A DNA stretch of 64,000 bases from an uncultured Acidobacteriota bacterium. Lineage in GTDB: Bacteria; Acidobacteriota; Thermoanaerobaculia; Multivoradales; DATKCC01. Of the stretch, positions 3,464-63,658 are shown in pieces (position 1 is the first letter of the stretch; the number at the start of each line of letters is the position of its first letter). A model generated the notes under the pieces. The model was not told the DNA's origin. It ran no database searches and worked only from the letters and a program-made list of their open reading frames with translations. The stretch lies in NCBI GenBank assembly GCA_963837945.1, contig CAWIQD010000026.1:151754-215753 (forward strand). The letters are read 5' to 3'. Both the position numbers and the translations under genes were made by a program.

Positions 3464-4957
3464 TGCAGCACAAGACGCACTTCGCCATCGGCGGCGCCCT
3501 GCTGGCCGTGGCGTTCCTCGTCCCCTGCCCCGCGCAGGCGGACTCGACCCAGGTCCTCATCTCCCACGGCTTGGTGAGCCGGGACGTCGGCGACGGCGCC
3601 GACCTCTTCTTCCGCGGCACGTTCGGCGGCAACGGACGGACCTGCGCCTCCTGCCATCCGCAGGACAACAACCAGACCATCGACCCGGCCTTCATCGCCA
3701 CCCTGTCGCCTTCGGATCCGCTGTTCGCCGACTCGGTCCCGGGGCTCGAGATTCCCGAGCTGCTGACCCAGTTCGGGCTCGTCCTCGAGAACGCCGACGG
3801 CTTCGAGGACCCGACCGCCAAGTTCGTCATGCGCGGGGTTCCGACCAGCCTGTCGATGTCCACCTCGATCCAGGCACCGGTCGGCTTTCCTTTCCCCAAC
3901 ACCACCGGTTGGAGCGGCGACGGCGGGCTCGACGGCACGCTCCACGCGTTCAGCTCCGGCGCGGCCAAGCAGCACTTCACCCAGAGCCTGGCGCGCGTCG
4001 AAGGCACGGACTTCCGGTTTCCCACCGAGACCGAGCTTCTCGAAGATGGAGCAGTTCATGCTCAACTCCGGGCGGCTCGACGACCTCACCCTGAGCAGCG
4101 TCAGCCTGGCGGAGCCGGACGCCGACGTCGGCCGGCGGATCTTCCTCAATGCCGGAGGGGACCCTTCGATCGGCGCCGGCAAGTGCAACACCTGCCACGC
4201 CAACGCGGGGGCCAACATCGACTTCGGCGACCAGGCGAACCACAACTACGACATCGGCATCGAGGACGTGCCCAACCCCGCCCGCCAGGTGCACGACTTC
4301 CCGTTCGACGGCGGCCTCGGCAAGCTCCTCAACAGCGAGGGCACCTACGGCGACGGCACCTTCAACACGCCGCCCCTGGTCGAGGCGGGAGACACGGCGC
4401 CTTACTTCCACAACAACTTGATCGGCGGCCTCGAGGACGCCGTGGCCTACTTCTCGGGCCCGGACTTCAACGCCTCGCCCGCAGCGAGCGTGGTCGGCGG
4501 CATCTCGCTGACGCCCACGGAGTCCGACCAGGTGGCGGCCTTCCTGCGCGTGATCAACGCCGGCTTCAACGTGGCGATCTCCATGCAGCGCAACGCCGCC
4601 GCGATCGTCCTCGAGAACAGCCGCGGCTCGACCTGCTCGGGCAAGTTCAACTGTCCGCAGAGCGCGCCGCCCGGAGGCGACACGACGGGGGTCAAGGAGA
4701 CGGTCGACACCCTCCTGCTGCTCTCCGACGTCGAGGCCGCCGACGCGATCGACGAGCTCAACGCCCGGGGGCTCAACCCCGACGCGGTGACGCTGCTCGA
4801 AAGCGCCATCTCGAAAAACCAGCAGGCGATTTCCGAGAACTCGTCCTCGACGAGGAAGAGCCTCGAGCAGTCGGCCAACGCCGACTTCCAGTCGGCCAAG
4901 GCCGCCCTGGGAAGCGGGCTCGACTTCACCCTCGGGCAGGGCAACCTGCTGTTCTAG
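3464..4957 (+). CDS. Di-haem c-type cytochrome (cytochrome c peroxidase/MauG-like), reading frame interrupted by an apparent +1 insertion near 4045
   Basis: RBS GGAGGAG before ATG 3464, signal peptide, first CxxCH (CASCH), then frame switches at ~4045 (..RFPTETELLE | MEQFMLNSGRLDD..) into ORF 4046..4957, which carries the second CxxCH (CNTCH). The original frame after 4060 is Arg-rich nonsense. Confidence 0.7.
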
Positions 4958-5032
4958 ACCGGGGCACCTCGGCGGGCGTTCCGGCGCCCGCCGAGATCTC
5001 TCGGACACGGACGCGCCAGGTAGGATGAGCGC

Positions 5033-6289
5033 GTGACGGACGCCGCCAGGCGCGACCTCGACCTCGTCCTGTGGGGCGCGAGCGGCTTCACCGGCCGCCT
5101 GGTGGCCCACCACCTGGTGCGCCACGGCAAGGACCTGCGCTGGGCCCTGGGTGGCCGCAGCGGAGAGAAGCTCGAAGCGCTCAGGAACGAGCTGGCGCTG
5201 CTCCGGCCCGAGGCGCGGGACTTGCCGCTCCTGGTCGGTGACAGCCTCGATCCCCGCTCCCTCGAGCCGATCGTGCGGCGCACCCGGGTGGTGTGCACCA
5301 CGGTCGGCCCGTACGCCCGGTTCGGCACGCCGCTGGTCAGCCTGTGCGCCGAGCTCGGCACCGACTCTTGTGATCTGTCCGGTGAGGTGGCGTGGATGCG
5401 CCGCAACGTCGACCGCTTCCACGAGCGGGCAGAGCGGAGCGGCGCCCGCATCGTCCACGGCTGTGGCTTCGACTCGATCCCGTCGGACCTGGGCACCCTG
5501 CTCCTGGCCCGGCGCCTGGCCGAGGAGGGCGCGCGGCTCGCGCGGGCGCGGCTCCGGGTCCGCCGCCTCGACGGGCGGATGAGCGGCGGCACGGCGGCGA
5601 GCCTGTTCGAGATCGCGACCGAGGCGCGCAAGGACCCGGGGACCCGCAAGATCCTCCTCGACCCCTACGGGCTCAACCCGCCGGGGGAGCGCCAGGGGCC
5701 GGACGGAAACGGCGGGCTCGGCCCGCGCTTCGACCGGGACCGGGGCGTGTGGACCGCGCCCTTCCTGATGGCCATGATCAACACGCGGGTGGTCCGCCGC
5801 TCGAACGCCCTGCTCGGCTACCCCTACGGCCGCGACTTCCGCTACGACGAGCGCGTCGACGCCGGCCGGGGGCTCCGGGGCCGGCTCCGGGCGCGCCTCC
5901 TCGCGACCGGCCTCCAGGCGTTCACCGGCGCCGCGGCCGTGGCGCCCACGGCCTGGCTCCTGCGCCGTTTCGTGCTCCCCGATCCCGGCGACGGGCCCTC
6001 GGCCGAGGAGCGCGAGCGCGGCGGCTTCCGGATCGCGATCCTGGGCGACGGCCTCCGCGAGCCGGGCGAGCCGCCGCTCCGCGCCCGGGTCACCGTCACC
6101 GCCGCACTCGACCCGGGCTACGGCGCGACCGCTCCAATGCTCGCCGAGTCCGCCCTCTGTCTCGCCCGGGGCGAGGCGACGGGCCTGCCGGCCGGCGTCC
6201 TGACACCGGCCGCGGCGCTCGGCCTCCCCCTGCTCGAGCGCCTCCGCCCCATGGGCGTCACCTTCGAGGCGTCGCTCGGCGACAGGTGA
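5033..6289 (+). CDS. Saccharopine dehydrogenase-like NAD(P)-binding oxidoreductase (trans-acting enoyl reductase family)
   Basis: N-terminal Rossmann GxSGxxG (LWGASGFTGRLV) and family-typical length and mid-region motifs (VHGCGFDSIPSDLG). Confidence 0.8.
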   Translation: MTDAARRDLDLVLWGASGFTGRLVAHHLVRHGKDLRWALGGRSGEKLEALRNELALLRPEARDLPLLVGDSLDPRSLEPIVRRTRVVCTTVGPYARFGTPLVSLCAELGTDSCDLSGEVAWMRRNVDRFHERAERSGARIVHGCGFDSIPSDLGTLLLARRLAEEGARLARARLRVRRLDGRMSGGTAASLFEIATEARKDPGTRKILLDPYGLNPPGERQGPDGNGGLGPRFDRDRGVWTAPFLMAMINTRVVRRSNALLGYPYGRDFRYDERVDAGRGLRGRLRARLLATGLQAFTGAAAVAPTAWLLRRFVLPDPGDGPSAEERERGGFRIAILGDGLREPGEPPLRARVTVTAALDPGYGATAPMLAESALCLARGEATGLPAGVLTPAAALGLPLLERLRPMGVTFEASLGDR

Positions 6290-6308: not shown

Positions 6309-6981
6309 CTAGCCGGGCGGCTCGGCCGCGGCCGGCCGGTAGAGGCGCCGGATCTGGATCCTGCCGCCGCCGCCCCACCCGGCCGCCATCGTCGTCACCA
6401 CCTGGAGGAGCTTGCCGTCGTCGGTGACGTCGAAGCGCTCGGAGACCTCCCGACGGTCGACCTTGCGGACGACGACCAGCGTTTCGCCGGCCCAGCGCGC
6501 CCGGACGGTTTCCTTGCCGTCCTCGGTCTCGGCGGTGTGCGCCCGACCGTCGGCCAGGATCGCCAGCCGCCGGCCGTCGGCATACTCGATCGACCACCCG
6601 CCTTCGATCGGCTCGATGTCCAGGGTGTCGTAGCGCCGGTCCGCTTCCGCATCCGCGCCGGGCCCGATTTCCCCGCCCCGGTCGGAGCCACCGGAGCCTC
6701 CGGCTCCCACCTCCCCAGGTTCCGCCGCCGGACGGCCGTCCCGTCCCCACCCCGGGAACGGTGTCGCCGAATCCCCGGCGGTTGCGCATCGCCTTCTGCA
6801 TCACCTCGCGGGGGTCGTCGCTCAGGTCCTTGTCGAGCTTCCAGACACCTTCGAGGTCGGGTCTCTCGTGGGGCTCCTCGGCGCCGGCCACGACCGGGAA
6901 GGTGAGCGCCGCGACCACCGGCGCGGCGAGGAGCGCCAGGGCCGGCAGGGTCCACGGGCAGAGGTGGCCGCGAAGTCTCAT
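6309..6981 (-). CDS. Secreted hypothetical protein (signal peptide + Gly-rich linker + beta-rich C-terminal domain), apparent +1 frameshift in linker (~6700-6760)
   Basis: ATG at 6981 starts signal peptide MRLRGHLCPWTLPALALLAAPVVA. Credible C-terminal domain (DTLDIEPIEGGWSIEYADGRRLAILADGRAHTAETEDGKETVRARW..) is in the frame of ORF 6309..6710. Joining needs a 1-nt shift. Confidence 0.5.
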
Positions 6982-7008: not shown

Positions 7009-8589
7009 TCAACCGGTGCGCATGAAGTGCCAGCGGCAGGCGCCCTCGACCGGCTGGAAGACCTCGGGGCGGATCGTCGGGCCGAAGTCGCGGAGAATCG
7101 ACGCCAGGTGCTCGCCGCGGGCGGCCCGCACGAGGGCCTCGGCGGCGCCCGAGCCGGCCTTGGTGATGTAGGTCTGCCAGATCGCCTGGCGGATCGAGAT
7201 GCCGCCCGAGAGGTTGACGTTGGGCAGGCGGGCGGCGCCCTTCTTGAGGATCGAGAGCTTCTCCTTCAAGCTCCGCTCGTCGTCCATCGGGGCGCGCTGC
7301 CAGGCGGTGTAGGGCTTGGGGATCAAGATGTTGACGCCGGCGTGGATCGAGCCGATGCGGCCGGTCTTCCTCGCCTCCTCGAGCATGACCGAGCGGCACT
7401 CGGCGACCAGCTCGAGGATCGCCTGGACGTCGTCGAGCGTCTCGTCCGGGATGCCGACCAGGAAGTAGAGCTTGAGCTGGGTGAAGCCGTGCTCGAAGAT
7501 CATCCGCACCTTCTCGAGCAAGAGGGCGTTGGGGATCGGCTTGTTGAGCTTCACCCGCAGCGCGTCGCTGCCGGTCTCCGGCGCCAGCGTGATCGAACGG
7601 TCGCCCGAGGCATGGAGGGCCGCGAGGACGCCGTCGGTGACCGCCGGGATGCGGATCGAGGAGACCGAGGTGCGGAAGCCGAGGCGGTTGCCCTCCTGGA
7701 GGATGCGCTCGATCTCCGGGTGGTCGCCGACGGCGGTGGCGACGAAACCGAGCTGGTCGGTGACCGGGCGCGCCCGCTCGAGCGAGGCGAGGATGTACTC
7801 CGCCGGATGCCAGCGGAACTTGCCCATGCCGAAGGTCGCCCAGCAGTACTTGCACTTCTCCGGGCAGCCGCGGGACATCTCGATCAGGAACTTGTCCGAG
7901 AACTCGGTGCGCGGGGTGACGATCGCCGTGGTCGGGAGGTACCCGGGGCGGCGCATCTGCTCGGCGGAGAGCTCGAGCTTGTGGAGCTTGTTCTCGCCGA
8001 AGGTGCCCACCAGGTCGTCGCCCTCCTCGGGACGGTGATGAGCGGGCACGTAGAAGCCCGGCCGGGAGGCCAGGCGCTCGAGGACGGCCTCGCGGCTCGC
8101 CTCCTCTTCGAGGGCTCCGAGCAGGTCGGGCAGCAGGTTCTCCGCCGCGCCGAGGGCGAAGACGTCGACCAGCTCGGCCATCGGCAGCGGATTGATCGCG
8201 GCGCACGAGCCGCCCATCACCACCAGCGGGTGCCAGGGTCCGCGCTCGGCGCGGCGCAGCGGAATGCCGCCCCGGTCGAGGAGCCGCAAGAGGCCGACGT
8301 AGTCCTCCTCGAAGGAGACCGAGAAAGCGACGCAGCCGAAGTCCGCGAGCGGCCGGCCGGACTCGACCGAGACCGGCGCGCCGGCGCCGTCGGTGAAGAA
8401 GCGCTCGGCAACCCAGCCCGGCCGGTCGGCCACCAGGCGCAGGGTGCGCTGGAACCCGAGGCTCGACATGCCGACGTGGTAGGTGTTGCCGTAGGCGAGG
8501 GCGAGCCGGAAGGCGCCGTGGCGCGGCAGCTCGTCGACCGGGCGCTCGTCCGCCCGGAACGGAGCCCAGTCCTGCACGGCCGCACTCAT
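7009..8589 (-). CDS. Radical SAM protein with N-terminal B12-binding-like domain (COG1032-type Fe-S oxidoreductase)
   Basis: CxxxCxxC motif CPEKCKYC in the core, ~200-aa N-terminal domain resembling cobalamin-binding domain of class B rSAM enzymes, 526 aa. Confidence 0.8.
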   Translation of the reverse strand: MSAAVQDWAPFRADERPVDELPRHGAFRLALAYGNTYHVGMSSLGFQRTLRLVADRPGWVAERFFTDGAGAPVSVESGRPLADFGCVAFSVSFEEDYVGLLRLLDRGGIPLRRAERGPWHPLVVMGGSCAAINPLPMAELVDVFALGAAENLLPDLLGALEEEASREAVLERLASRPGFYVPAHHRPEEGDDLVGTFGENKLHKLELSAEQMRRPGYLPTTAIVTPRTEFSDKFLIEMSRGCPEKCKYCWATFGMGKFRWHPAEYILASLERARPVTDQLGFVATAVGDHPEIERILQEGNRLGFRTSVSSIRIPAVTDGVLAALHASGDRSITLAPETGSDALRVKLNKPIPNALLLEKVRMIFEHGFTQLKLYFLVGIPDETLDDVQAILELVAECRSVMLEEARKTGRIGSIHAGVNILIPKPYTAWQRAPMDDERSLKEKLSILKKGAARLPNVNLSGGISIRQAIWQTYITKAGSGAAEALVRAARGEHLASILRDFGPTIRPEVFQPVEGACRWHFMRTG

Positions 8590-8677
8590 GGTGGAAGCTA
8601 GAACAGGCGGTTCACGGAGGCGAATTCCGCGCGGGGTTGCGCCTCACCGCCGCACCCCGGCTGGTAGAGTCCCGGCC

Positions 8678-9202
8678 ATGAGGCGGCACGTAGAGCGAGT
8701 GCTCGGAGCGCTCGAGCGCGAGGGCGTCCGATTCCTGGTCGTCGGAGGCGTCGCCGTCGTCCTGCACGGATATCTCCGCACGACGGTAGACCTCGACCTC
8801 GTGATCCAGCTCGATCGAGGAAACGTCCTGCATGCGGTCGACGCTTTCAAGCGGCTGGGCTTCCAACCGCGCGTGCCGGTTCAGCTCGAGAGCTTCGCCG
8901 ACGAGTCGGAGCGAGCGCGGTGGGTCCGCGAGAAGAACGCTCGCGTCTTCTCTCTTGGGCACCCGGACGAGCCGGGCTTTCTCGTCGACCTCTTCGTCGA
9001 GGAGCCGTTCGACTTCGACGAGCGGTACCACCGGGCCGCCATCGCGCTACTCGGCGAGGTGGAGGTCCGGGTGCTGGCGATCGAGGACCTGGTGGAGATG
9101 AAGCGTGCCGCGGGCCGGGCCCAGGACCTGGCCGACGTGGAAGCTCTTCTTCGGCTCCAAGTGGCGGAGGACGACACCGCCGGGCCGGGAAGGGACTCAT
9201 GA
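8678..9202 (+). CDS. Minimal nucleotidyltransferase-fold protein (Pol-beta superfamily; hG[GS]...DhDh motif GGVAVVLHGYLRTTVDLDLV)
   Basis: Trimmed to ATG 8678 (MRRHVERV). Conserved NTase motif. C-terminal AAGRAQDLADVEALLRL segment typical of stand-alone NTases of toxin-antitoxin-like modules. Confidence 0.6.
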   Translation: MRRHVERVLGALEREGVRFLVVGGVAVVLHGYLRTTVDLDLVIQLDRGNVLHAVDAFKRLGFQPRVPVQLESFADESERARWVREKNARVFSLGHPDEPGFLVDLFVEEPFDFDERYHRAAIALLGEVEVRVLAIEDLVEMKRAAGRAQDLADVEALLRLQVAEDDTAGPGRDS

Positions 9203-9390
9203 CCAGGGCGGTGCGAGGCGTGCCGGAACCGGACAGACCCGACACCTGGGACTTCGACCGGGCCCGCGACGCCGCGGTGCGCGAGGGGTTGCGCCTCACT
9301 CCGGCCCAGCGGCTGGCTTGGCTGGAGGAGACCCTCGAAGAGCTGAAGGATCTCCTGGGCCGGGCGCGGAAGAGCAAGGCGGTCCGGTGA
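9199..9390 (+). CDS. Small hypothetical protein (63 aa) overlapping upstream NTase gene by 4 bp (ATGA)
   Basis: ATG 9199 overlaps TGA of preceding gene. Sequence MTRAVRGVPEPDRPDTWDFDRARDAAVREGLRLTPAQRLAWLEETLEELKDLLGRARK. No HEPN Rx4-6H motif. Confidence 0.4.
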   Translation: MTRAVRGVPEPDRPDTWDFDRARDAAVREGLRLTPAQRLAWLEETLEELKDLLGRARKSKAVR

Positions 9391-9446: not shown

Positions 9447-10532
9447 TCAAAACACGTAATTCACCACGAAGCTCCAGCTCTTGTCGATGAACGTCTCCGG
9501 GCCGTGGTCGGGCTCGGTCTTCCAGTAGTCGTACTCGAGGATCAGGTTGAGGTTGTCCCGCAGGCTGTAGGTGACCCCCGGCAGGATCTCGGTCTCAGTG
9601 GCGGCGGCGCCGTCGTAGGCCACCTGGCTCCAGTTGAGCCGGAGCTGGAGCGGGGCGATCGGCCGCCAGCGGGTGCCCACCAGGTAGTAGGTCGAGTCGT
9701 CGTAGCCCAGGCGCGAGTGGGGGTGGGCGGCATCGGCCGGCTCGCCGCTCTGGTCGAGCACCTCGGCGTAGCCGATCCAGGGCCCGAGGGTGAGGGTCGC
9801 GTCGCCCGCCATCTGCCGGAGGTCAAAGCTCTCCGCCGCCACGTCGTGCCGGGCGATCCGGCCCGAGAGCCCCGAGAGGCCGATGGCGAGCGAGCGGCCG
9901 GGGCCGAAGCTCCAGGTCGGCGCCACCCGGCCGGTCACCGTGTTGCGCAGCTCCGCCGTGTCGTCGCTCTCGACGTCGCGGCCCGGGAGCGAGCCCGCGA
10001 CCTTGTCGTTGTTCACGAAGTACTGGGCCGAGTAGTCGAGGTGGAAGCCCTCGCCCGCCGGGCGGCTGCCGACGAGCTCGGCGCCGTAGTCCGGGTTGAG
10101 CTTCAGGCCGTTGAAGTACTGGACGTTGCCGAAGAAGGAGTCGTCCCAGAAGAGGCCCACCTTGCGGTAGACCTTGCCCACGTGGAGGTCGCCCACGGGG
10201 GTCTTCGCCCAGACGTAGGCCTCCTGGAACCAGACGTCGGAGACGAAGTAGGAACGCAGCTTCGAGTCGCGCGCCCGGGTCTGGACGTGGAGGCCGTAAC
10301 GCCCGTCCTCGGTGGCGCCGTCGAGGTTCAGCACGAAGGCGTAGATCTCGAATTTCTCGCGCGCGCCCTCGAGCTGCGGCAGATACTCGAAGAGGTAGAT
10401 CGAGCCGCCCAGGTCGAAGTGGGTCTCGAGCGTCGAGTCGGCGGCCAGGCCCGGGCGGGCGGCGGCGGCCGCGAGCAGGACGAGAAGGGCGGCGGCGGTC
10501 CGTGCGAGCGGGGATTTCGGTCGGCTGGGCAC
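9447..10532 (-). CDS. Outer-membrane beta-barrel protein (porin-like), last gene of phenolic-lipid operon
   Basis: Signal peptide (LLVLLAAAAARPGLA), alternating amphipathic beta-strand pattern, C-terminal aromatic residue (..NYVF). Confidence 0.7.
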   Translation of the reverse strand: MPSRPKSPLARTAAALLVLLAAAAARPGLAADSTLETHFDLGGSIYLFEYLPQLEGAREKFEIYAFVLNLDGATEDGRYGLHVQTRARDSKLRSYFVSDVWFQEAYVWAKTPVGDLHVGKVYRKVGLFWDDSFFGNVQYFNGLKLNPDYGAELVGSRPAGEGFHLDYSAQYFVNNDKVAGSLPGRDVESDDTAELRNTVTGRVAPTWSFGPGRSLAIGLSGLSGRIARHDVAAESFDLRQMAGDATLTLGPWIGYAEVLDQSGEPADAAHPHSRLGYDDSTYYLVGTRWRPIAPLQLRLNWSQVAYDGAAATETEILPGVTYSLRDNLNLILEYDYWKTEPDHGPETFIDKSWSFVVNYVF

Positions 10533-11863: not shown

Positions 11864-11864
11864 C

Positions 11865-14531: not shown

Positions 14532-14655
14532 TGGCGTGGAATCCTATCCCCTCCCTTCCCCCCGCGAGGAGCCACAGGTCATCGGGCAATCCCGGCGGAG
14601 CGGGAGGCCCGCTCCGGCTGCGAACCCACCCTAGCCCTCGCCTCCCTCGCCCACC

Positions 14656-26535: not shown

Positions 26536-28524
26536 CCTCGCCCTTCCAGGCCACGCTTCTCGGGATCGCCCTGGCGGCCTCGGGAGCGGTGGCGGCGGCG
26601 CCATCGGCCCCGGCGCCGCCGGACGCCGCGCCCGGGGCCGAGCGGCCGGCAGCGCCCGCGACCAACCGGCTGGCCGGGGAGTCGAGCCCCTACCTGCTGC
26701 TCCACGCCGGCAACCCGGTCGACTGGTATCCCTGGGGGCCGGAGGCGATCGAGACCGCCCGGCGCGAAGGCAAGCCGATCTTCCTCTCGATCGGCTACTT
26801 CAGCTGCTACTGGTGCCACGTCATGGAGCGCCAGGTCTTCTCCGACCCGGCGATCGCGGCGCTCATGAACCGCTGGTTCGTCAACGTCAAGGTCGACCGG
26901 GAAGAGCGGCCGGACCTGGACGAGATCTACTTGACCGCCACCCGGATGCTCACCGGCGAGGGCGGCTGGCCGAACTCGGTCTTCCTCACCCCGGACCTCG
27001 AGCCCTTCTTCGCCGGCAGCACCTTCCCGCCGGCCGACACGCCGGACCGCACCGGCTTTCCCACCGTGCTGCGCCAGATCCACGAGGCGTGGACCGGGCG
27101 GCGGGAGGAGGTCGAGCGGGTGGCCTCCCAAGTGGCGGGCGGGATGGAGCGGGCGATCGCCCGGCAGCGGGAGCCGACCGCCGACGTGCCGCCGGCGGCC
27201 GCCGCCCGGCGCGCGGTGACCGAGCTCGAGGGCCGCTTCGACGCCGAGTGGGGCGGCTTCGGCCCGGCGCCCAAGTTTCCCGACGCCGGCAGCCTCGCCC
27301 TGCTCGAGGAGGCGGCCCGCGGTGGCGACGAGACCGCCGGCAGGGAGCTCGGGACGACCCTCGAGCGCATGGGCGAAGGCGCGATCTACGACCAGCTCGG
27401 GGGCGGCTTCCACCGCTACGCCCTCGACGCGCGCTGGCGGGTGCCCCACTTCGAGAAGACGCTCTACGACAACGGTCTCCTGGCCGGCGCGCTGGCCGAG
27501 GCCTACGAGCGGACCGCCGACCCCGAGCTCGCGCGCCTGGGCCGGGGGACGGCCGAGTTCCTACTCCGCGCGATGGCGCTTCCCGGCGGCGGCTTCGCCT
27601 CGGCGATCGACGCCGAGACCGACGGCGTGGAGGGCGCCTACTACGCCTGGACCGTTCCCGAGCTCGAGGCGGCCCTCGGCGCGGAGGGCTTCGCCCGGCT
27701 CGCTCCGGTCTACGGCTTCGGCGACCCCCCGAACCTGGACCGCGGCCGGCGGACCCTCTACCTGAGCGCGCCCCTCGCGGAGCGGGCACGCCACCTCGGG
27801 ATCTCCCGCGAGGCGCTCCTCGCCCGGCTCGAGCCCCACTTGGCGGCGCTGCGCTCGGTCCGCGAGAAGCGGCCGTCGCCGGCGATCGACGACAAGGTGC
27901 TCGCCGACTGGAACGGCCTGGCGATCGGCGGGCTCGCCCGGGCGGGGCAAGCGTTCGGGGAGCCGCGCTACCTGGAGGCCGCCCGGCGAGCCGCGCTCTT
28001 CGTGCTCGGCGAGCTCCGGGGCGCGACCGGAGCCGCCGGCAAGACCCCGGGCCCCCTCCTCCACGCCTGGCGGGGCGGCGAGGCGAAGATCCCCGCCTTC
28101 CTGGACGACTATGCCTTCTTGATCGACGGGCTCCTGGCGCTCCAGGACGCGACCGGCGAGGCCCGCTGGCTCGCCCGGGCGCGCGAGCTCGCCGACGAGC
28201 TCGAGACCCGCCTGCGCGATCCGGCGGGTGGCTACTTCCTCGCCGCACCCCGGCCGCACCTGCTGTTTCAGCCCAAGAGTGCCGTCGACGGAGCCCTGCC
28301 CTCGGGCAACGGGACGGCGGCGCTCGACCTCCTCGAGCTCGCCCAGAGGACCGGGGAGGCCGAGTACCGCCGGCGCGCCGAGGCGGTGCTCCGCGCCTTC
28401 GGCCGCGACCTGGTGGCTTACCCCGCGGCGGTCGCCACCCTGGCGCGGGCCCGGCTGCGCGCGGAGGAGCCCGCGAAGCCCGTCCGGCCGGCCGCCACCG
28501 GGCCCTCGCGGCGCCCGGCGGTAA
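26532..28524 (+). CDS. Thioredoxin-domain protein of DUF255/YyaL family (N-terminal Trx-like + alpha/alpha-toroid domain); 3' end unresolved
   Basis: ATG overlaps MFS stop (ATGA). Conserved [28 protein letters not shown] motifs. This frame has no stop until 30740. The family ends near ..ATLARARL (~28460), so a +1 indel probably diverts to the TAA at 28522. The end coordinate is an inference. Confidence 0.7.
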
Positions 28525-40655: not shown

Positions 40656-41772
40656 TCAGATCCGCATGGGCATGATGACGCAGAGGTAACGGCCCTTGCC
40701 GTCGTCGTCCTCCGGGTAGCCCACCGTCTGGGTGTTCTCGTCCTTGAGCTCGAGGCGTACCTTGTCGACCTCCACCGCTCCCAGGAACTGGTCGAGGTAG
40801 TCGGGGTTGATGCCGATCTTGAACTCGGGGCCCGCGTACTCGCACTCGACCCGCTCGGTCGCCTCTCCCAGGTCGGGGTTGACCGCCGAGACCACCAGCT
40901 CGTCCGGGGCGAACGACAGGCGCACCGCGCGCGCCCGGTCGCCGGTCAGGAGAGCCACGCGCTTGACCGCGTCGCCCAGGCTCCGCCGGTCGAAGACCGC
41001 CTTCTTGTCGTTGTCCTTGGCGATCACCCGCTCGTAGTCCGGGAAGGTCCCCTCGAGGATCCGGCAGGTCGAGCTCCCGGCGCCCGAGGCGAAACGACAG
41101 GTGGTGCGCGCCCCGGCGGTAGCCCACCGCCTCGTCGCTCTCGAAGCGCTGGAGCTCCTGGAGCGCTTTCCTCGGCACCAGGACCGAGTCCTCCTCGGGG
41201 CCTTCGCCCGCCGCCAGGCCGGCGACCGGCGCCTCGACCAGCGCCAGGCGATGGCCGTCGGTCGCCACCAGCTCGATCGAGGCCTCCTTGAACTTGAGCA
41301 GGGCGCCGTTGAGCTGGAAGCGCGACTCCTCGCTCGAGACCGCGAAGAGGATCTTCGAGATCATCTTGCGGACTTCGGCGAACGGGATCTCGACCCGGTT
41401 CTCCTCGTCGACCGTCGGCAGCGTGGGGAAGTCCTCGGGCGGCAAGCCGTGGATCTTGAAGCGCGAGTTGCCGGCCTTGATCGTCAGCTCCCGCGGCTCC
41501 TCCTGGATGAGGTGGACCTCCTGGCCGACGAGCGAGCGGATGATCTCCATGAACTTCTTCGCCTGGACGGCGATCGCCCCCTCGGCGGCGACGTCGGCCT
41601 CGCAAAAGGAGGTGAGCGACACGTCGAGGTCGGTGGCCGCGAGGCTCAGCCGGTCCCCCTTGGCGGAGAGCAGGAGGTGGGCGAGCACGGGGATCGTCGT
41701 CTTGCGTTCGACGATGCCCTGCATCGGTGCCAGCTCGGCGAGGAATTGGTTGCGCTCGACTCGGACGTCCAT
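40656..41772 (-). CDS. dnaN: DNA polymerase III beta sliding clamp; apparent +1 frameshift at ~41060-41075
   Basis: ATG 41772 with AAGGAGGGAG RBS. N-terminal two-thirds in one frame (..SFRLGRRELD), C-terminal third (CRILEGTFPDYERVIAKDNDKK...IMPMRI) in the +1 frame. Confidence 0.9.
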
Positions 41773-49279: not shown

Positions 49280-50276
49280 CTACGCCTTCGTCTCTTCCGT
49301 GCCGCCGCCGCCCGCCAGGATGTACCAGCCGATCAGCTTGTCGTCGAGCTCGCGCAGGCGCTTGGCGACCAGCGAGCACAGCAGCTTGAGGAGCGGCAGC
49401 GACGAGACCTTGCCGATGTCCAGGATGCCGCCCAGGACCTCGCCGCGGGATGGCGAGGACCACCGCGCCGCCCTCGTGGGCGCGGGCGTCCGCCGAGCGG
49501 GGCTCGCGGTCGATCAGGGCCATCTCGCCGAAGTAGTCGCCGCGCTCGAGGAAGGCGAGGGCCTCCTCGCCGGCGCCCGGGATGTACTTCGAGATCATCA
49601 CCCGGCCCTCGAGGACGACGTACATCTCGTCGCCCGGATCGCCTTCGCGGAACAGCACCTCGTTGGGATGGAGCTTGCGCTCCTGGGAGAGGCTGGTCAG
49701 GAAGTTGATCTCGAGGCTCGAGAGCCGCTGCTCTTCGAAGAGCTTGCGCTTCGAGGCGAGGTCGACCCGGAACTCGCCGGCGACCGGGCCGCCGGCGGGC
49801 GGCGCCTCGGTGCCCGGAGGCCGGCCGCCCTTGGAGAAGAACTGCTCGAGCCGGGAGTTGGTGGCCCGCAGCTTCCGGGAGAGGCTCTTCCAGAAGGTCC
49901 AGTAGAGGGCGAGGGCGAGCCGTCGCTCGCCGTCGAGGGCGGAGGCGAGGGCGACCGGGTTGAAGCCGAGCAGCTCGGTGTCGCCCTCGGTCATGGCGTC
50001 GCCGGAGCGGGTGTTGCGGTCGACGAAGGCGGTCTCGCCGAAGAGCTCGCCGGGGCCGAGGGTGGCGAGGGCGTACTGGCCGTACGGGGTGTGGCGGTGG
50101 ATGCGGACCCTGCCGGCTTCGATCAGATAGGCGTCGAAGGTGGAGTCGCCCTCTTTGACGATGGTGACGCCGGTGGGGTATCGGGTGAGGGAGACGCAGC
50201 CGTCGAGGGCGTCGAGCTGCTCGTTGGTGAAGTGGGAAAAGGCATCCCACCTGCGGAGACGCTGAGGAACCTTCAC
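49280..50276 (-). CDS. Tandem cyclic-nucleotide-binding (CAP effector) domain protein; apparent +1 frameshift near 49440-49452
   Basis: Two cNMP-binding domains (GELFGETAF; GDYFGEMALI..RSA). C-terminal 53 aa (EVLGGILDIGK..LIGWYILAGGGGTEETKA*) only in the +1 frame ending TAG 49280-82. Confidence 0.7.
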
Positions 50277-53074: not shown

Positions 53075-54786
53075 CTACGTCTCCTCCTGCCTCTCGTTCG
53101 GGGTGGGCTCGGGCTCGACCCGCTCGACGGTGTCCTGGAAGATCTCGAGCACGGTCTGGACCGTCGGGTTGTCCGGTGCCGCGGCGGCTTCGTCGTCCGG
53201 GACGGCGTCCTCGGGGGCCGCGGTGCCGGGCCGGGCGCGGACCGTGGTCCACCGCGCACCGGATCCCCAGACGTCGGCCACCGCGCGGTCGACGACCTCC
53301 CGGTTGGCGGCCTTGCTGAGCCGGTCCCGGAGCAGCTCGTCGCCGGCCTCGATCTCGACCTCGAGCGCTCCGTCCACCCAGCGCAGGGAGCGCGCGTGGC
53401 GGAGGTAGCCCGCGAGCGGCGGCTTGGCGTCGCTGACCCGCTCCAGGAAGGCCTCGACGGAGCCCGCGGCGGGGGGCCGGGGCGCCGCCGGGGGCGCGGG
53501 CTCGGGCGGCGGCGGCCGGTCGGGCGGTTCGATCGGCTCGCCCGGCTCGCCCGGCTCGGGGCCTCCCGGCGCTCGCGGGCGGGGGTTCGGCCGGCGTCCT
53601 CGCCGGGGCGCCGACGGGCGGCGGGCGGGACCGGAGGCGCCGTCCGCGGGGCCTCGGCGGGCGCCGTCCGTCCGGCGAGGAGCGCCTCGACACGGGTCAG
53701 GCGGGGAAGCTCGGCGGAGCGCAGCCACGCGATCTCGACCGCAAGCAGGGCGGAGTCGCTCCGGCGCACCGTCTCCTCGCTTGCCAACAGCTGCTGGAGC
53801 AGGCGCAGGAGGTTGTCGAAGCCGGCGGCCCGGGAGCGCTCGGCGAGCCGGTCGGCCTCCTCGCGCGGCAGGTCGACCCGGTCCGGATCGGTGCCCATCG
53901 CGAGGTGGATCGCGTCGCGGCAGTAGCCGAGGAACTGGGCGTAGACGTGCCGCGGGTCCCAGCCTTCGGCTTCGATCTCCCCGACCACGGCGGCGATCTC
54001 CGTCCGGTCGCCGGCGAGCACCGCTGCCAGCAACCTCTCGAAGAGAGCGGTGTCCAGGCCGCCCAAGAGGCGCACCGCGTCCTGGTCGGCGATCGCGCCG
54101 GAGCCGAAGGTGGCGAGCTGGTCGAGCAGGGCGACCGAATCGCGCACGCTGCCCTCACCGGCGCGGGCGATCAGCCGCAGCGCGGCGTCGCTCGCCTCGA
54201 TCTGCTCGCTCTCGGCGATCCCGCGCAGGTGCGCGGCGAGGATCTCCGACGACACCCGGCGGAAGTGGAACTCCTGGCACCGCGAGAGCACCGTCGCCGG
54301 GACCGCGTCGATCTCGGTGGTCGCGAAGATGAAGACGAGGTGGGGCGGCGGCTCTTCGACGATCTTGAGCAGCGCGTCGAAGGCCTGGCGCGAGAGGCGG
54401 TGGATCTCGTCGATGACCACCACCTTGTAGCGGTCGCGCGCCGGGCCGTACTTCAGCCCCTCGGTCAGCTCGCGCACCTGCTCGACCTTCGAGTAGGTGG
54501 CCGCGTCGACCTCGATCACGTCGAGGTCGCTGCCGGCGGTGATCTCGAGGCAGGCCGTGCACTCGTTGCAGGGGTCGGCCGCCGGGCCGCGCTCGCAGTT
54601 GAGCGCCTTGGCCAGCACCCGGGCGGCCGAGGTCTTGCCGACGCCGCGGATGCCGGAGAAGAGGTAGGCCTGGGCGATGCGGCCCTCGGTCAGCGCGTTG
54701 CGCAGGGCCGTGACGATCGGTCCCTGGCCGACGACGCTCTCGAAGTCCTGCGGCCGCCACTTGCGGGCGAGTACCTGGTAGGCCAT
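53071..54786 (-). CDS. dnaX: DNA polymerase III subunits gamma/tau
   Basis: AAA+ Walker A GIRGVGKTS, zinc module CNECTACLE, SRC motif. Long Pro/Arg-rich linker then tau C-terminal domain. Confidence 0.9.
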   Translation of the reverse strand: MAYQVLARKWRPQDFESVVGQGPIVTALRNALTEGRIAQAYLFSGIRGVGKTSAARVLAKALNCERGPAADPCNECTACLEITAGSDLDVIEVDAATYSKVEQVRELTEGLKYGPARDRYKVVVIDEIHRLSRQAFDALLKIVEEPPPHLVFIFATTEIDAVPATVLSRCQEFHFRRVSSEILAAHLRGIAESEQIEASDAALRLIARAGEGSVRDSVALLDQLATFGSGAIADQDAVRLLGGLDTALFERLLAAVLAGDRTEIAAVVGEIEAEGWDPRHVYAQFLGYCRDAIHLAMGTDPDRVDLPREEADRLAERSRAAGFDNLLRLLQQLLASEETVRRSDSALLAVEIAWLRSAELPRLTRVEALLAGRTAPAEAPRTAPPVPPAARRRPGEDAGRTPARERREAPSRASRASRSNRPTGRRRPSPRPRRRPGPPPRAPSRPSWSGSATPSRRSRATSATRAPCAGWTERSRSRSRPATSCSGTGSARPPTGRSSTARWPTSGDPVRGGPRSAPGPAPRPPRTPSRTTKPPRHRTTRRSRPCSRSSRTPSSGSSPSPPRTRGRRRRR

Positions 54787-55616: not shown

Positions 55617-55708
<92 letters not shown>

Positions 55709-55726: not shown

Positions 55727-55816
55727 GGAGAGGTGCCAGAGCGGTCGAATGGGGCGGTCTCGAAAACCGTTGACCGTGCAAGCGGTCCGTGGGTTCGAAT
55801 CCCACCCTCTCCGCCA
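55727..55816 (+). tRNA. tRNA-Ser (anticodon CGA)
   Basis: Same acceptor and T-arm as the preceding tRNA. Anticodon loop CTCGAAA. Long variable arm. Encoded CCA. Confidence 0.9.
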
Positions 55817-56134: not shown

Positions 56135-56518
56135 TGCCGCCCCGGCGGGCAGAGTCCGCCCACGGGGAGGGTCTGTCGCGCGAGCGGCGGCTGCGCCGGA
56201 GGCTCCGAGTACCTGCGGTGCTACCGGCGGGGCCGGCGGCTGCGCGGCTCGTTCCTGCGGCTGCACTTCGCTCCGAACCCGCTCGGTCACCCGAGACTGG
56301 GAATCACCGCCAGCCGGAAGGTGGGCAAGGCGGTGGTGCGCAACCTGCTGAAGCGGCGCGTGCGGGAGATCTACCGCCGCTGGCCGCGGCGGGTGGAGCT
56401 GCCGGCGCTCGACCTGGTCGTTCACCTGGAGCCGGCGGCCGCCGGGGCGAGCTTTCCGGCGCTCGCCGGCGAGCTCTCGGAGCTGCTCGGCCGGCTGGTC
56501 GAGAGGGAAGGGCGGTGA
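56134..56518 (+). CDS. rnpA: Ribonuclease P protein component; apparent +1 frameshift near 56198-56203
   Basis: Conserved core ([51 protein letters not shown]) lies in the same frame as rpmH, directly after its stop, with no start codon. A plausible N-terminus ([22 protein letters not shown]) from ATG 56134 is in the -1 frame. Confidence 0.8.
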
Positions 56519-58628: not shown

Positions 58629-60149
58629 ATGCCTGACGATCGCAGAAGGAAGTTCTTTTCCGGCCGCTCGGTGGAGCAGGCCCTGGTGGCGGCCGCGAGC
58701 TACCACGGGATCGACCCGAGCGAGATCGAGTATCGAGAGATCGAGAAGCGGCACGGCTTCGTCCGCACCCGCCGCAACGCGGTGATCGCCGTCGATCCGG
58801 ACCACCCGCGCAAGGCGGTGACCGCCGCCCCGGCCGCGGCACGTCCGGCGCCGGCGGCCCCGCCGGCGCCGGCGGGTGGCGAGGAGAGCCGCCGCGAGGA
58901 GCGCCCGACTCGGCCGCGCGAGGAGCGCCCCGCACGGTCGCGGGAGGAGCGCCCACGCCGGCAACGGGAGGACCGCCCGGCCCGGCCGCGACAGGAGGCC
59001 GCCCCGGAGGTGGAGGCGGCCCCCGAACCGGTTGCGCCTGAGGCCGCCGAGCGCGGTGGCGAGCAAGAAGGGCGCCGGCCGGAGCGGCCGCGGCGCGAGC
59101 GGCGGGGGCGCGGCCGGGGTCGCGGAGGAAGCGGCGAGCCTCGCCAGGAGCGGCCGGCTGCGTCCCGCGCGGCGAAGAAGCCGAGCGAGAGCGCCGCCCC
59201 GACTCCGCCCTGGTGGCTCGCCGAGCCGGTCGAGGAGGACACCCACTACGGCGTGGAGGACCTCGACGAGGAGCTCGACGAGACGGAAGAGCTCGACGAG
59301 ATGGAGGCGTTCGACGAGCCGGAGGAGGACGAGGACGGCGAGGTCGAGGACGACGAGATCGAGGACGACGAGGGCGAGGCCGGATCCGAAGGGCCGGAGG
59401 AGAGCGGGCCCGAGAGCGACGACAGGTTCCGTCACGTTCGGCGCTCGGAGGGCCTGCGGCGACGGACGCCGCCGGGCCCGCCGGGCCCGCCGGCAGCGGC
59501 GCCCCGGAGCGAGGAGGGGCCGCGGAGAGAAGGTCGCGGCGGTGGAAGGCGCCGGCGAGGAGGCCGGGGCCGGGGGCCGGAGGCCGCTGGCGAGCTACGG
59601 CAGCGATCGGGCTCGCGGCGGGAGCCCGCGGCTCCGGAGGCGCCGCCGCCGGCTCCGCCCGAGCCGCGGATCCCGCGCTCGGAGCGGCTGCCCCGCGAGG
59701 AGGGGGAGCTGGCGGATGCCGCTCGCGAGGCCCTCGAACGGCTGCTCGAGTTCGTCGGCGTGGAGGCGGAGGCCGACTTCTACCGCGACGGCGAGCGGCT
59801 CGAGATCGAGCTCTGGGGACCGGACGACCAGATCCTGCTCGATGACGAAGGCCAGCTGCTGCTCGCGATCGAGCACCTCCTGCCGCGGATGATCCGCGGG
59901 ATCTACGGCGACGCCCTGCCGGTGCGGGTGGACTGCGCCGACTTCCACGCCGATCGCGAGGACCGGCTTCGCGACCTCGCGCGCCGCACCGCGGACGAGG
60001 TCCGGCGGCGGGGCCGGCCGCGGACCCTCGAAGAGATGGATCCGGCCGAGCGCCGGATCGTCCACATCACCCTCGAGGACGACCCGACGGTGGCTACCGA
60101 GAGCATCGGGGACGGGTACTTCAAGAAGCTGAAGGTCATGCCGGCGTAG
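58629..60149 (+). CDS. jag: Jag/KhpB RNA-binding protein (Jag_N + KH + R3H) with ~330-aa low-complexity Arg/Glu/Pro-rich insertion
   Basis: N-terminal Jag_N (FFSGRSVEQALVAAASYHGI), C-terminal KH and R3H domains (..ERRIVHITLEDDPTVATESIGDG..). Acidic stretch EEDEDGEVEDDEIEDDEGE and RERP repeats in between. Confidence 0.85.
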   Translation: MPDDRRRKFFSGRSVEQALVAAASYHGIDPSEIEYREIEKRHGFVRTRRNAVIAVDPDHPRKAVTAAPAAARPAPAAPPAPAGGEESRREERPTRPREERPARSREERPRRQREDRPARPRQEAAPEVEAAPEPVAPEAAERGGEQEGRRPERPRRERRGRGRGRGGSGEPRQERPAASRAAKKPSESAAPTPPWWLAEPVEEDTHYGVEDLDEELDETEELDEMEAFDEPEEDEDGEVEDDEIEDDEGEAGSEGPEESGPESDDRFRHVRRSEGLRRRTPPGPPGPPAAAPRSEEGPRREGRGGGRRRRGGRGRGPEAAGELRQRSGSRREPAAPEAPPPAPPEPRIPRSERLPREEGELADAAREALERLLEFVGVEAEADFYRDGERLEIELWGPDDQILLDDEGQLLLAIEHLLPRMIRGIYGDALPVRVDCADFHADREDRLRDLARRTADEVRRRGRPRTLEEMDPAERRIVHITLEDDPTVATESIGDGYFKKLKVMPA

Positions 60150-62375: not shown

Positions 62376-63226
62376 GCGCCGCGAAGAAGCGCGGCCTGGG
62401 GCGCGGGCTCGACGCCCTGCTCGCGGACGAGCCGGCGCGCAGCCTGCCGGTCGACCGCCTGCGTCCGAACCGGTTCCAGCCGCGCACCGACTTCGACGAC
62501 GCCAAGCTCGCCGAGCTGGCGGAGTCGATCCGCGCCCAGGGCGTGGTCCAGCCGATCGTCGTCACGCCCGACGGCAGCGGCGGCTTCACCATCATCGCCG
62601 GCGAGCGGCGCTGGCGGGCGGCCCGCAAGGCGGGGCTCGCCGAGGTGCCGGTCGCGGTCCGCGAGGTCTCGGGCGACCGCGAGCTCCTGGAGCTCGCCCT
62701 GGTCGAGAACCTCCAGCGCAGCGACTTGAACCCGGTCGAGGAGGCCGAGGCCTACCGCACCCTCGCCACCAGCTTCGACCTCTCGCAGGAGGAGATCGCT
62801 CTGCGGGTCGGCAAGAGCCGTACGACGGTGACCAACGCCCTGCGGCTCCTCAACCTGCCGGGCGAGATCCTCGACGAGGTGCGCAGCGGGCGGCTCACGG
62901 CCGGCCAGGCCAGGCCGCTCCTCGCGATCAAGGACCGCGCCCGCCAGCTCGCCCTGGCGCGCGAGGCGGCACAGGAGAGCCTCACCGCCCGGCAGCTCGA
63001 GCGCCGCTCGAGCCCCGGCCGGCGCCCGAAGACCCGACGGGCGCCCGCACCGGAGGAGCCCGAGGTCTTCGCCGCCGCGGCCGCCGAGAAGCTCACCAAG
63101 CGGTACCAGACCAAGGTCGAGATCCGTCGCCAGCCGCCGCGGGGCGTGATCCAGATCCATTTCCACTCGGAGGAGGAGCTCATCCGCCTCTACGACCAGC
63201 TCATGGAGCGAGGAGGACGTCGATGA
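62372..63226 (+). CDS. parB: Chromosome partitioning protein ParB (Spo0J)
   Basis: GTG overlaps parA stop (GTGA). ParB box GERRWRAA, HTH, C-terminal dimerisation domain. Confidence 0.9.
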   Translation: MSAAKKRGLGRGLDALLADEPARSLPVDRLRPNRFQPRTDFDDAKLAELAESIRAQGVVQPIVVTPDGSGGFTIIAGERRWRAARKAGLAEVPVAVREVSGDRELLELALVENLQRSDLNPVEEAEAYRTLATSFDLSQEEIALRVGKSRTTVTNALRLLNLPGEILDEVRSGRLTAGQARPLLAIKDRARQLALAREAAQESLTARQLERRSSPGRRPKTRRAPAPEEPEVFAAAAAEKLTKRYQTKVEIRRQPPRGVIQIHFHSEEELIRLYDQLMERGGRR

Positions 63227-63658
63227 TCTTCAGGGCGGACAATCCGGAAGGCGAGCTCAACGGGTTCGTGGACGCGGGAAGCCACTTCCGGGGCGAAGCT
63301 CCGGTTCGAGACGACCTTCCGCGTCGACGGCAAGGTCGAGGGCGCGATCGTCTCGAGCGGCACCCTGGTCGTGGGCGAGGGGGGCGAGGTGGACGGCGAG
63401 GTGCGGGTGGGTCAGATCTTCATCTCGGGGACGGTCCGGGGCTCGGTCCAGGCGAGCCGCAAGATCCAGCTCTGCGCCGCCGGCAAGATCTTCGCCGACC
63501 TCGAGACCCCTTCGCTGGTGATCGAAGACGGGGCGATGTTCGACGGCCGCTGCGTGATGAGCCGGGAGCGCCAGGCCGAGCCCGCCCAGGGGGGCGTTCC
63601 GGCCCGCCCGGCCGCGGTCAAGCCGATCCAGCCGGTCTCCGCGCGCAACGAGCATTGA
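63223..63658 (+). CDS. Bactofilin (CcmA/BacA-like cytoskeletal protein); apparent +1 frameshift near 63298
   Basis: ATG overlaps parB stop (ATGA). N-terminal 25 aa in one frame. The bactofilin beta-helix core (LRFETTFRVDGKVEGAIVSSGTLVVGEGGEVDGEVRVGQIFISGTVRG...GAMFDGRCVMS) is in the +1 frame. Removing one g in gaaGctc restores GELRFE. Confidence 0.75.

What the first reader, a model, noticed from the sequence alone, without database searches (positions are those of the whole stretch)
4040..63300. At least six (probably eight) genes show single-base +1 frame disruptions, including essential dnaN and rnpA; most likely assembly indels
Conserved protein sequence continues in the +1 frame in the di-haem cytochrome (~4045), the secreted protein (~6700-6760), dnaN (~41060-41075; ..GRRELD then CRILEGTFPDYERVIAKDN..), the cNMP-binding protein (~49440-49452), rnpA (~56198-56203; core lies directly after the rpmH stop in the rpmH frame without a start codon) and the bactofilin (~63298; gaaGctc). 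Probable additional cases are the DUF255 protein (no stop for >2 kb past its conserved end near 28460; a TAA exists in the +1 frame at 28522) and the DUF2064 start (~16430 CCCCC run). All are consistent with one inserted base. Loss of dnaN or rnpA is not viable, so the simplest explanation is systematic insertion errors in the assembly (e.g. long-read or low-coverage MAG). A degrading genome with a second intact copy elsewhere is the alternative.
Basis: seen in the sequence. Interest (0 to 1): 0.6.

Follow-up and report, generated by a model that had tools for sequence, protein, structure and literature searches.

The report
Single-base assembly errors breaking genes
Seven or eight genes in this 64-kb stretch, including indispensable ones, are thrown out of frame by single stray bases that close relatives lack and that tend to sit in one short sequence motif, so they are almost certainly sequencing or assembly errors and not biology.

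Summary
All six are +1. The DUF255 case is plausible but unproven. The DUF2064 case is not supported. One break was missed: dnaX, with a net -1/+2 shift in its linker.

The window comes from a 72% GC Thermoanaerobaculia (Acidobacteriota) genome. Two syntenic relatives (80-95% amino-acid identity) have all five comparable genes intact. Each window break there is one extra base in an otherwise collinear alignment. Downstream of the breaks, differences from relatives sit almost entirely at third codon positions of the shifted frame. Those frames were therefore under selection until essentially now. The sites share no slippery sequence, stop codon or stimulator.

The rnpA and bactofilin insertions each duplicate a base inside GAGCTC(C). 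So does the only frameshift found in a relative's assembly (parB in L009). A motif-agnostic permutation gives p = 0.007. This points to context-specific long-read consensus error, possibly at a methylated motif.

Verdict: an assembly artefact and not a biological feature, so interest is low. One practical caveat applies. In this high-GC DNA the wrong frames stay open, so the errors produce near-normal-length chimeric ORFs that length-based quality checks would miss.

The parts
4037..4045 (+). Frame break (+1) in a di-haem cytochrome c peroxidase-like gene (about 3461-4957). The extra base is either T in GAGCT[T]C (4037/4038) or A/G in CTCGA[A]G (4044/4045).
   Evidence: Frame switch +0 to +1 at 4043. 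The repaired protein matches P0247 over residues 3-497 in one stretch, and the alignment has no gap at ELLE|MEQFML.
6694..6760 (-). Frame break (+1) in a signal-peptide protein (6981 down to 6309). The candidate site is GAG[G]CTC at 6694-6700, in the same 13-mer context (GCCGGAGGCTCCG) as the rnpA site.
   Evidence: The N-terminal frame has no stop and becomes Arg/Gly-rich junk. The protein-like C-terminal frame has no start codon upstream of 6710. No homologues or Pfam match were found.
28440..28521 (+). Possible +1 break near the C-terminus of the DUF255/thioredoxin-domain gene (about 26530-28524). The candidate site is GA[A]GCCC at 28475-28481.
   Evidence: The gene's frame stays open to 30740, across sspB and minus-strand genes. 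Removing one A gives a stop at TAA 28522-28524, with sspB starting at ATG 28549. This is not verified against relatives.
41070..41071 (-). One extra base in dnaN (gene 41772 down to 40656). The window reads GAGCT[C]GACC where the relative reads GAGCT-GATC.
   Evidence: This is the single gap in a 1116-nt alignment to L001. tblastn splits the gene into frames -2 and -3. The repaired 371-aa protein covers 100% of its homologues at 91-93% identity.
49445..49445 (-). One extra base in the cNMP-binding protein gene (50276 down to 49280). The window reads ATCCC[G]CGGCGAG where the relative reads ATCCC-CGGCGAG.
   Evidence: tblastn places residues 1-276 and 277-330 exactly one nucleotide apart, and the downstream segment is 96-100% identical to relatives.
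53471..53665 (-). Net -1 (or +2) frame change in the Pro/Ala-rich linker of dnaX (54786 down to 53075). The exact site is unresolved, and the C6 run at 53471-53476 is a candidate.
   Evidence: Relatives' DnaX (574 and 565 aa) matches the window in two frames. The conserved C-terminal domain 'GSVEAFLERV...TVQTVLEIFQDTVERVEPE' is in the other frame. The linker is too divergent for DNA-level mapping.
56201..56202 (+). One extra G in rnpA (ATG 56134, overlapping the rpmH TGA, to 56518). The window reads CCGGAG[G]CTCCGAG where relatives read CCGGA-GCGCCGAG.
   Evidence: DNA alignments to L009 and L010 show a single 1-nt gap at this point. tblastn splits the gene into frames 1 and 2. Homologues read RRSAEYLRCY.
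63296..63297 (+). One extra A in the bactofilin gene (63223-63658). The window reads GGCGA[A]GCTCCGG where relatives read GG(A/G)GAGCTCCGG.
   Evidence: DNA alignments to L009 and L010 show a single 1-nt gap. tblastn splits the gene at residue 25. After repair the Pfam Bactofilin match runs 3-97/98.

Best explanation
The frame breaks are consensus errors of the sequencing or assembly process, not features of the organism's DNA. Most are single spurious inserted bases. The window is a normal origin-proximal chromosome segment of a 72% GC Thermoanaerobaculia bacterium (gyrA-gyrB-recF-dnaN-dnaA ... ffs-dnaX-ybaB-recR ... rpmH-rnpA-yidD-yidC-jag ... rsmG-parA-parB-bactofilin).

Shown here:
- Each mapped break is one extra base relative to otherwise collinear relatives.
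- The affected reading frames have been under selection up to the present.
- The insertions are biased towards one context. A base inside GAGCTC(C) is duplicated, giving GA[A]GCTC, GAG[G]CTC or GAGCT[T]C.

Inferred, not shown: the data are long-read (probably Nanopore-only, Flye/Medaka-type) metagenome assemblies, and the basecaller or polisher stutters at this motif, perhaps because it is methylated in this lineage. The remaining sites (cNMP, dnaX) would be ordinary low-coverage indels.
For: 1. Relatives are intact. In L001/L002 and L010/L011 (one lineage, each locus seen in two assemblies) and in L009 (a second lineage), dnaN, cNMP, dnaX, rnpA and bactofilin are each called as a single full-length gene. 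When tblastn places those proteins on the window, only these five of about 33 genes change frame.
2. Each break is exactly one base. dnaN has one gap in 1116 nt. The cNMP halves abut with one nucleotide between them. rnpA and bactofilin each show a single 1-nt gap.
3. Selection persists downstream of the breaks. Differences from relatives by codon position in the shifted frame are 3/3/34 for dnaN, 1/0/13 for cNMP, 9/8/35 for bactofilin and 13/12/37 for rnpA. None of these segments contains a stop.
4. Essential single-copy genes are hit (dnaN, rnpA, dnaX). About 8 of about 62 genes are affected.
5. There is a context bias. The rnpA and bactofilin insertions, and the only frameshift seen in a relative assembly (parB of L009), each duplicate a base inside GAGCTC. 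In a permutation over all hexamers, 145 of 20000 random sets reached 3 of 5 events sharing a hexamer. The dnaN insertion abuts GAGCTCC. The cytochrome, secreted-protein and DUF255 intervals contain matching variants.
6. No shared slippery codon, in-frame stop or stimulator appears at the sites.
7. Literature context. [quoted passage not shown] In high-GC Propionibacterium, the two strains carrying 5mC GRGCYC methylation (a motif that includes GAGCTC) had more than 100 differences in native-DNA R10.4.1 assemblies, against 2 in the strain lacking it. The authors also state that DNA modifications can cause basecalling errors (PMC11649196).
Against: - No reads are available, so the extra bases cannot be shown to be unsupported.
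- The source assembly and its technology are unknown. Exact look-ups of two window proteins found nothing.
- The relatives belong to other species (83-90% nucleotide identity), so very recent strain-specific mutations cannot be excluded.
- The strong excess of insertions (6-7 of 7-8) and the mostly non-homopolymer contexts differ from the textbook long-read error, which is a homopolymer deletion.
- The motif association rests on three well-mapped events plus post hoc candidates, and the cNMP and dnaX sites do not fit it.
- The methylation link is an inference. No methyltransferase gene lies in the window, and PMC11649196 does not itself localise its errors to GRGCYC.
- The relatives' assemblies have far fewer frameshifts (1 in about 55 kb) than the window.
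Confidence: 0.86

Rival explanations
1. The insertions are real, very recent mutations. The sequenced population would be a degrading or hypermutating lineage, or a mixed population whose consensus picked up minority alleles. Function would be supplied by intact copies elsewhere or by other cells.
For: Reads were not inspected. The relatives are other species, so strain-specific events are possible. A context bias could in principle reflect a mutational hotspot.
Against: dnaN, rnpA and dnaX are essential and normally single-copy. Eight hits in 64 kb would imply about 13% of genes inactivated, yet no substitutions, stops or further indels have accumulated downstream. All other genes are intact. 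The same motif-linked insertion type appears in an unrelated gene of another assembly, which fits a technical cause better.
Confidence: 0.07
2. The extra bases are real and are bypassed during expression. The mechanism would be programmed +1 ribosomal frameshifting, quadruplet decoding or transcript-level correction, so full-length proteins are still made.
For: Six or seven breaks go in the same direction (+1). The downstream frames are under selection. Two sites carry a GGAGG (Shine-Dalgarno-like) string at the break.
Against: The breaks are not conserved in either related lineage. No slippery P-site codon, in-frame stop or rare codon is shared between sites. The GGAGG string is created by the insertion itself. 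dnaX needs the opposite net shift. The only tRNAs in the window are two ordinary tRNA-Ser. No precedent exists for genome-wide +1 recoding in free-living bacteria (own knowledge).
Confidence: 0.03
3. The dnaX break alone is a natural programmed -1 frameshift or transcriptional slippage site, like the one that makes the gamma subunit in E. coli or Thermus.
For: The break lies after domain III, roughly where gamma and tau diverge in E. coli. An in-frame C CCC CCG heptamer lies at 53476.
Against: Here the conserved tau C-terminal domain is the part that lies out of frame, which is the reverse of known systems. Relatives encode tau in one frame. No A-rich slippery heptamer or A-run is present. The zero frame runs to a 571-aa junk-tailed ORF instead of a prompt stop.
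Confidence: 0.03

Closest known systems
Residual indel errors in long-read (Nanopore/PacBio) assemblies and MAGs that split or fuse predicted proteins
   Same: Isolated one-base indels occur at roughly 1 per 8 kb. They hit genes regardless of essentiality and are absent from related or independent assemblies. The downstream coding signal is intact. Nanopore-only Flye/Medaka MAGs are acknowledged to retain indels (PMC12313526; PMC9262707 abstract).
   Different: Classic cases are dominated by deletions in long homopolymers. Here most events are insertions. Several duplicate a single base inside GAGCTC(C), and only dnaX may involve a homopolymer (C6).
Methylation-motif-associated basecalling errors in native-DNA Nanopore data
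   Same: The errors recur at a short palindromic motif. GAGCTC belongs to GRGCYC, a 5mC motif documented in high-GC Propionibacterium strains whose native ONT assemblies carried many more errors (PMC11649196).
   Different: Published motif-linked errors are mainly substitutions (for example the A/G bias in 10.64898/2026.01.14.699587, abstract). Methylation of GAGCTC in this lineage is not shown, and the technology behind the window is unknown.
prfB-type programmed +1 ribosomal frameshifting
   Same: One base must be skipped to read the conserved downstream frame.
   Different: There is no conservation in relatives, no in-frame stop or hungry codon, and no slippery P-site codon. Many unrelated genes are affected.
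dnaX -1 programmed frameshift (E. coli) / transcriptional slippage (Thermus)
   Same: It is the same gene and roughly the same position, after domain III.
   Different: The conserved C-terminal tau domain is the part out of frame. No A-rich slippery site is present, and relatives have a single ORF.
Pseudogene-rich degrading genomes (e.g. Mycobacterium leprae, recent symbionts)
   Same: Many genes carry frameshifts.
   Different: Core replication and RNA-processing genes are affected, yet there is no secondary decay. Each gene has exactly one lesion, and codon-position patterns show continuing selection.

Membership tests
Assembly/consensus indel artefact | The lesion is absent from related or independent assemblies of the same locus | tested here: met
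   dnaN, cNMP, dnaX, rnpA and bactofilin are intact in L001/L002, L010/L011 and L009. These relatives are other species, not the same strain.
Assembly/consensus indel artefact | The reading frame downstream of the lesion shows no decay and still carries a purifying-selection signature | tested here: met
   Differences by codon position in the shifted frame are 3/3/34 (dnaN), 1/0/13 (cNMP), 9/8/35 (bactofilin) and 13/12/37 (rnpA). No stops occur.
Assembly/consensus indel artefact | Lesions hit genes irrespective of essentiality | tested here: met
   dnaN, dnaX and rnpA are affected alongside accessory genes.
Assembly/consensus indel artefact | Raw reads do not uniformly support the extra or missing base | not testable with these tools
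   No reads are available, and the source assembly was not found by exact protein look-ups.
Assembly/consensus indel artefact | The errors show a technology-typical sequence context | tested here: inconclusive
   Three of five DNA-mapped events duplicate a base inside GAGCTC (permutation p = 0.007). Only one candidate homopolymer site exists (C6 in dnaX). The methylation link is inferred from the literature only.
Programmed +1 ribosomal frameshift (prfB-like) | The shift site is conserved in orthologues | tested here: not met
   Orthologues in two lineages are in a single frame.
Programmed +1 ribosomal frameshift (prfB-like) | A slippery P-site codon is followed by an in-frame stop or rare codon, with an upstream SD-like stimulator | tested here: not met
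   The zero-frame codons at the breaks (GAA-GAT, GAC-CTG, CGG-CGA, AGG-CTC, GAA-GCT) share nothing and include no stop. GGAGG occurs at only two sites and is created by the insertion.
dnaX programmed -1 frameshift / slippage | An A-rich slippery heptamer or A-run where the -1 frame terminates promptly, while full-length tau stays in the zero frame | tested here: not met
   No A/T run occurs in the linker. The conserved C-terminal domain is in the -1 frame and the zero frame is a junk tail.
Genuine pseudogenes (degrading genome) | Several lesions per gene, relaxed selection, and essential functions retained elsewhere | tested here: not met
   Each gene has one lesion and selection is retained. 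Second copies elsewhere cannot be tested from one window.

The most novel reading that the evidence does not exclude
The extra bases are really in the DNA and arise from a motif-targeted process at GAGCTC(C), for example modification-dependent polymerase stutter or a nuclease/repair scar in vivo. The cell would tolerate them through efficient +1 correction during transcription or translation. That would amount to widespread recoding of essential genes in a free-living acidobacterium.
Probability: 0.02. Interest if true: 0.9.

Novelty: not a real feature. Interest (0 to 1): 0.12.

Why it matters
Biologically it does not matter, because the genes are ordinary and almost certainly intact in the organism. 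It matters for data quality.

About one gene in eight in this window would be mis-translated. Because the wrong frames of 72% GC DNA rarely contain stops, the errors do not give obviously truncated proteins. They give chimeric ORFs of near-normal length:
- dnaN: 412 aa called, 371 aa real.
- dnaX: 571 aa called, about 574 aa in a relative.
- Bactofilin: 147 aa called, 145 aa real.

Length-ratio checks and completeness estimators can miss these, and the junk tails can enter protein databases.

The apparent concentration of insertions at GAGCTC(C), seen also in a relative's assembly, is a testable hint. A methylated motif may cause systematic consensus insertions in long-read MAGs of this lineage.

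Tried and rejected
- Exact look-ups of window proteins (rpmH, transaldolase) to find the source contig returned nothing on record.
- The metagenome scan with the 5033-6289 gene found relatives of that gene (86%, 77%...). Their flanks are not syntenic with the cytochrome or the secreted protein, so sites 4043 and 6757 could not be compared at DNA level.
- A fused query (radical-SAM protein + DUF255) was meant to pull relatives for both ends of 1-30 kb. DUF255, DUF2064 and the secreted protein therefore remain without close homologues.
- Pfam and PDB searches of the repaired cytochrome did not cover the junction. The representative-library search did.
- A suspected -1 break at 9174 was rejected. 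It is a nucleotidyltransferase gene with a proper stop, followed by a small gene starting at an overlapping ATGA.
- An apparent strand flip at 13960-14659 was rejected. It is an ICMT-family gene on the minus strand.
- Fine mapping of the dnaX break by DNA alignment and by local codon scores failed because the linker is low-complexity and divergent.
- Comparing duplicate assemblies of the relatives (L001 vs L002, L010 vs L011) for motif-linked indels gave only two intergenic 1-nt indels and one 6-nt in-frame indel, which is uninformative.
- Widening the motif to GRGCYC made one-insertion variants too common (883 in the window) to be informative.
Full report
**What the window is.** The window is 64 kb at 68-76% GC. 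A repaired DnaN finds its best matches (up to 91-93% identity) among metagenome proteins labelled Thermoanaerobaculia/Acidobacteriota. Gene content is that of an origin-proximal chromosome region:
- M20 peptidase, transaldolase, gyrA, gyrB, recF, dnaN and dnaA on the minus strand.
- An S49 peptidase and a RimK cluster, a MutY-like gene, a cNMP-binding protein, an aminotransferase, and recR-ybaB-dnaX preceded by SRP RNA.
- Two tRNA-Ser genes, then rpmH-rnpA-yidD-yidC-jag, rsmG-parA-parB-bactofilin.

**Checking the observation.** A codon-usage Viterbi segmentation and three-frame translations show same-strand frame switches with no stop codon at about 4043, 6757, 41058, 49446, 56204 and 63296. 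The segmentation also shows the DUF255 frame running on past its coding signal at about 28548. Other apparent switches turned out to be normal gene boundaries, such as overlapping stop/start pairs, a small gene after a nucleotidyltransferase at 9197, and an ICMT-family gene.

**Comparison with relatives.** Two related lineages were retrieved with syntenic loci covering window 30-64 kb.
- L001/L010 come from ENA ERZ25039549 contig_13843 (517 kb). Near-identical second assemblies are L002 and L011.
- L009 comes from ERZ25039483 contig_13094 (559 kb).

Nucleotide identity to the window is 83-90%. When tblastn places the relatives' called proteins on the window, about 33 genes match and only five change frame: cNMP, dnaN, dnaX, rnpA and bactofilin.

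At DNA level the breaks look like this.
- dnaN differs by a single 1-nt gap in 1116 nt: GAGCT[C]GACC against GAGCT-GATC.
- cNMP has one extra base at 49445: ATCCC[G]CGG against ATCCC-CGG.
- rnpA has one extra G: GGAG[G]CTCC against GGA-GCGCC.
- Bactofilin has one extra A: GCGA[A]GCTCC against G(A/G)GAGCTCC.

The rnpA start is an ATG overlapping the rpmH TGA, as in the relatives. This explains why the rnpA core sits in the rpmH frame without a start codon.

For the cytochrome no syntenic relative was available. With one base removed, however, the protein aligns in a single stretch (residues 3-497) to a 66%-identical representative. It shows no gap at the junction in an alignment with eight homologues.

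The secreted protein has no homologues or Pfam match. Its break rests on coding statistics, on the absence of a stop in the N-terminal frame, and on the absence of a start for the protein-like C-terminal frame.

- dnaX is an additional break. Residues 1 to about 435 of the relatives' DnaX match one frame, and the conserved C-terminal domain matches another, a net -1 (or +2) shift within the Pro/Ala-rich linker. It could not be mapped more finely. A C6 run at 53471-53476 is a candidate.
- DUF255 remains plausible. The only homologues obtained are distant and have different C-termini.
- DUF2064 is not supported. The conserved N-terminal strand is in frame with the domain, and an in-frame GTG lies at 16358.

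**Artefact or biology?**
1. The relatives are intact at every comparable site.
2. dnaN, rnpA and dnaX are essential genes.
3. Downstream of each break, differences from relatives fall overwhelmingly at third codon positions of the shifted frame: 3/3/34 in dnaN, 1/0/13 in cNMP, 9/8/35 in bactofilin and 13/12/37 in rnpA. No secondary stops or indels occur. The downstream frames were therefore translated throughout the divergence from the relatives. The lesions are either not real or extremely recent.
4. The sites share no slippery codon, in-frame stop, rare codon or upstream stimulator, and dnaX needs the opposite net shift. This argues against a recoding mechanism.
5. The insertions are not randomly placed. 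The rnpA and bactofilin insertions each duplicate one base inside GAGCTC(C). So does the only frameshift detected in the relatives, a T in parB of L009 (GAGCT[T]CC against GAGCTCC in L010, L011 and the window).
   - In a permutation that considers every hexamer, only 145 of 20000 random sets of five deletions reached three events sharing a hexamer.
   - The dnaN insertion abuts GAGCTCC.
   - The cytochrome, secreted-protein and DUF255 intervals each contain a matching one-base-duplicated variant. The secreted-protein candidate shares a 13-mer with the rnpA site. These three were noticed after the fact and are not counted in the test.

A context-specific error that recurs in a different gene of a different assembly is the signature of a technical process.

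**Likely mechanism (inferred).** The relatives' record names ('contig_N') match those of Flye-assembled long-read MAGs such as the Microflora Danica set. Those MAGs are Nanopore-only and polished with a single Medaka round to reduce indels (PMC12313526).

GAGCTC is part of GRGCYC. In high-GC Propionibacterium freudenreichii, the two strains with 5mC GRGCYC methylation had more than 100 differences in native-DNA R10.4.1 assemblies, against two in the strain lacking it. The authors note that DNA modifications can cause basecalling errors (PMC11649196).

I therefore propose that the window comes from a modest-coverage long-read assembly in which a modified GAGCTC(C) motif provokes one-base stutter insertions. 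Ordinary indels would account for cNMP and dnaX. This step is not shown. The source and technology of the window are unknown, and no methyltransferase gene lies in the window.

**Practical consequence.** In this GC-rich DNA the off-frames stay open. The broken genes therefore appear as ORFs of roughly normal length with junk tails: dnaN 412 aa, dnaX 571 aa, bactofilin 147 aa. Length-based quality checks would miss them.

**Verdict.** Rivals are real recent mutations (about 0.07), expression-level recoding (about 0.03) and a natural dnaX frameshift (about 0.03, dnaX only). This is not a real biological feature, so interest is low.

Noticed in passing
L009:16560-16566 (parB, 16063-16918): The relative's assembly carries its own +1 frameshift in parB. 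A T is duplicated inside GAGCTC (GAGCT[T]CC), so no parB gene was called there. parB is intact in the window, L010 and L011.
   Followed up: yes
window 10676-16109 (minus strand): A small biosynthetic cluster. It contains a type III polyketide synthase (14656-15885), an ICMT-family methyltransferase (13953-14531), a carrier protein (13711-13956), an AMP-dependent ligase (11865-13724) and an FAD-dependent oxidoreductase (10676-11968). A porin-like gene follows at 9447-10532.
   Followed up: partly
window 8588-9390 (+): A toxin-antitoxin-like pair. A DUF6036/AbiEii-type nucleotidyltransferase (8588-9202) is followed by a 64-aa ORF starting at an overlapping ATGA (about 9197-9390). At first it looked like a -1 frameshift, but it is not one.
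   Followed up: yes
window 54841-54939 (-), 55617-55708 and 55727-55816 (+): SRP RNA lies directly upstream of dnaX (72 bits, full length). Two tandem tRNA-Ser genes (GGA and CGA anticodons) lie upstream of rpmH.
   Followed up: yes
window 58629-60149 (+): The Jag/KhpB-like protein carries a roughly 350-aa Arg/Glu/Pro-rich disordered insert. Its length varies among relatives (466, 534 and 506 aa), and the insert produces many spurious tblastn hits to off-frames of this GC-rich DNA.
   Followed up: no
window 16110-16350: A lower-GC intergenic stretch with stops in all frames lies between the divergent 15726-16109 gene and DUF2064. It gave no Rfam match at gathering threshold. The true DUF2064 start codon is unclear.
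   Followed up: partly
window ~28000-32000 versus 42025-43347: Cumulative GC skew reaches its minimum near 30 kb, while dnaA lies at 42.0-43.3 kb. The skew switch and dnaA are thus about 12 kb apart. oriC was not located.
   Followed up: no
window 5033-6289 and loci L012-L015: The saccharopine-dehydrogenase-like gene has 66-86% identical relatives in JGI metagenome contigs, but their flanking genes differ. The cytochrome and the secreted-protein gene are therefore not conserved neighbours.
   Followed up: partly
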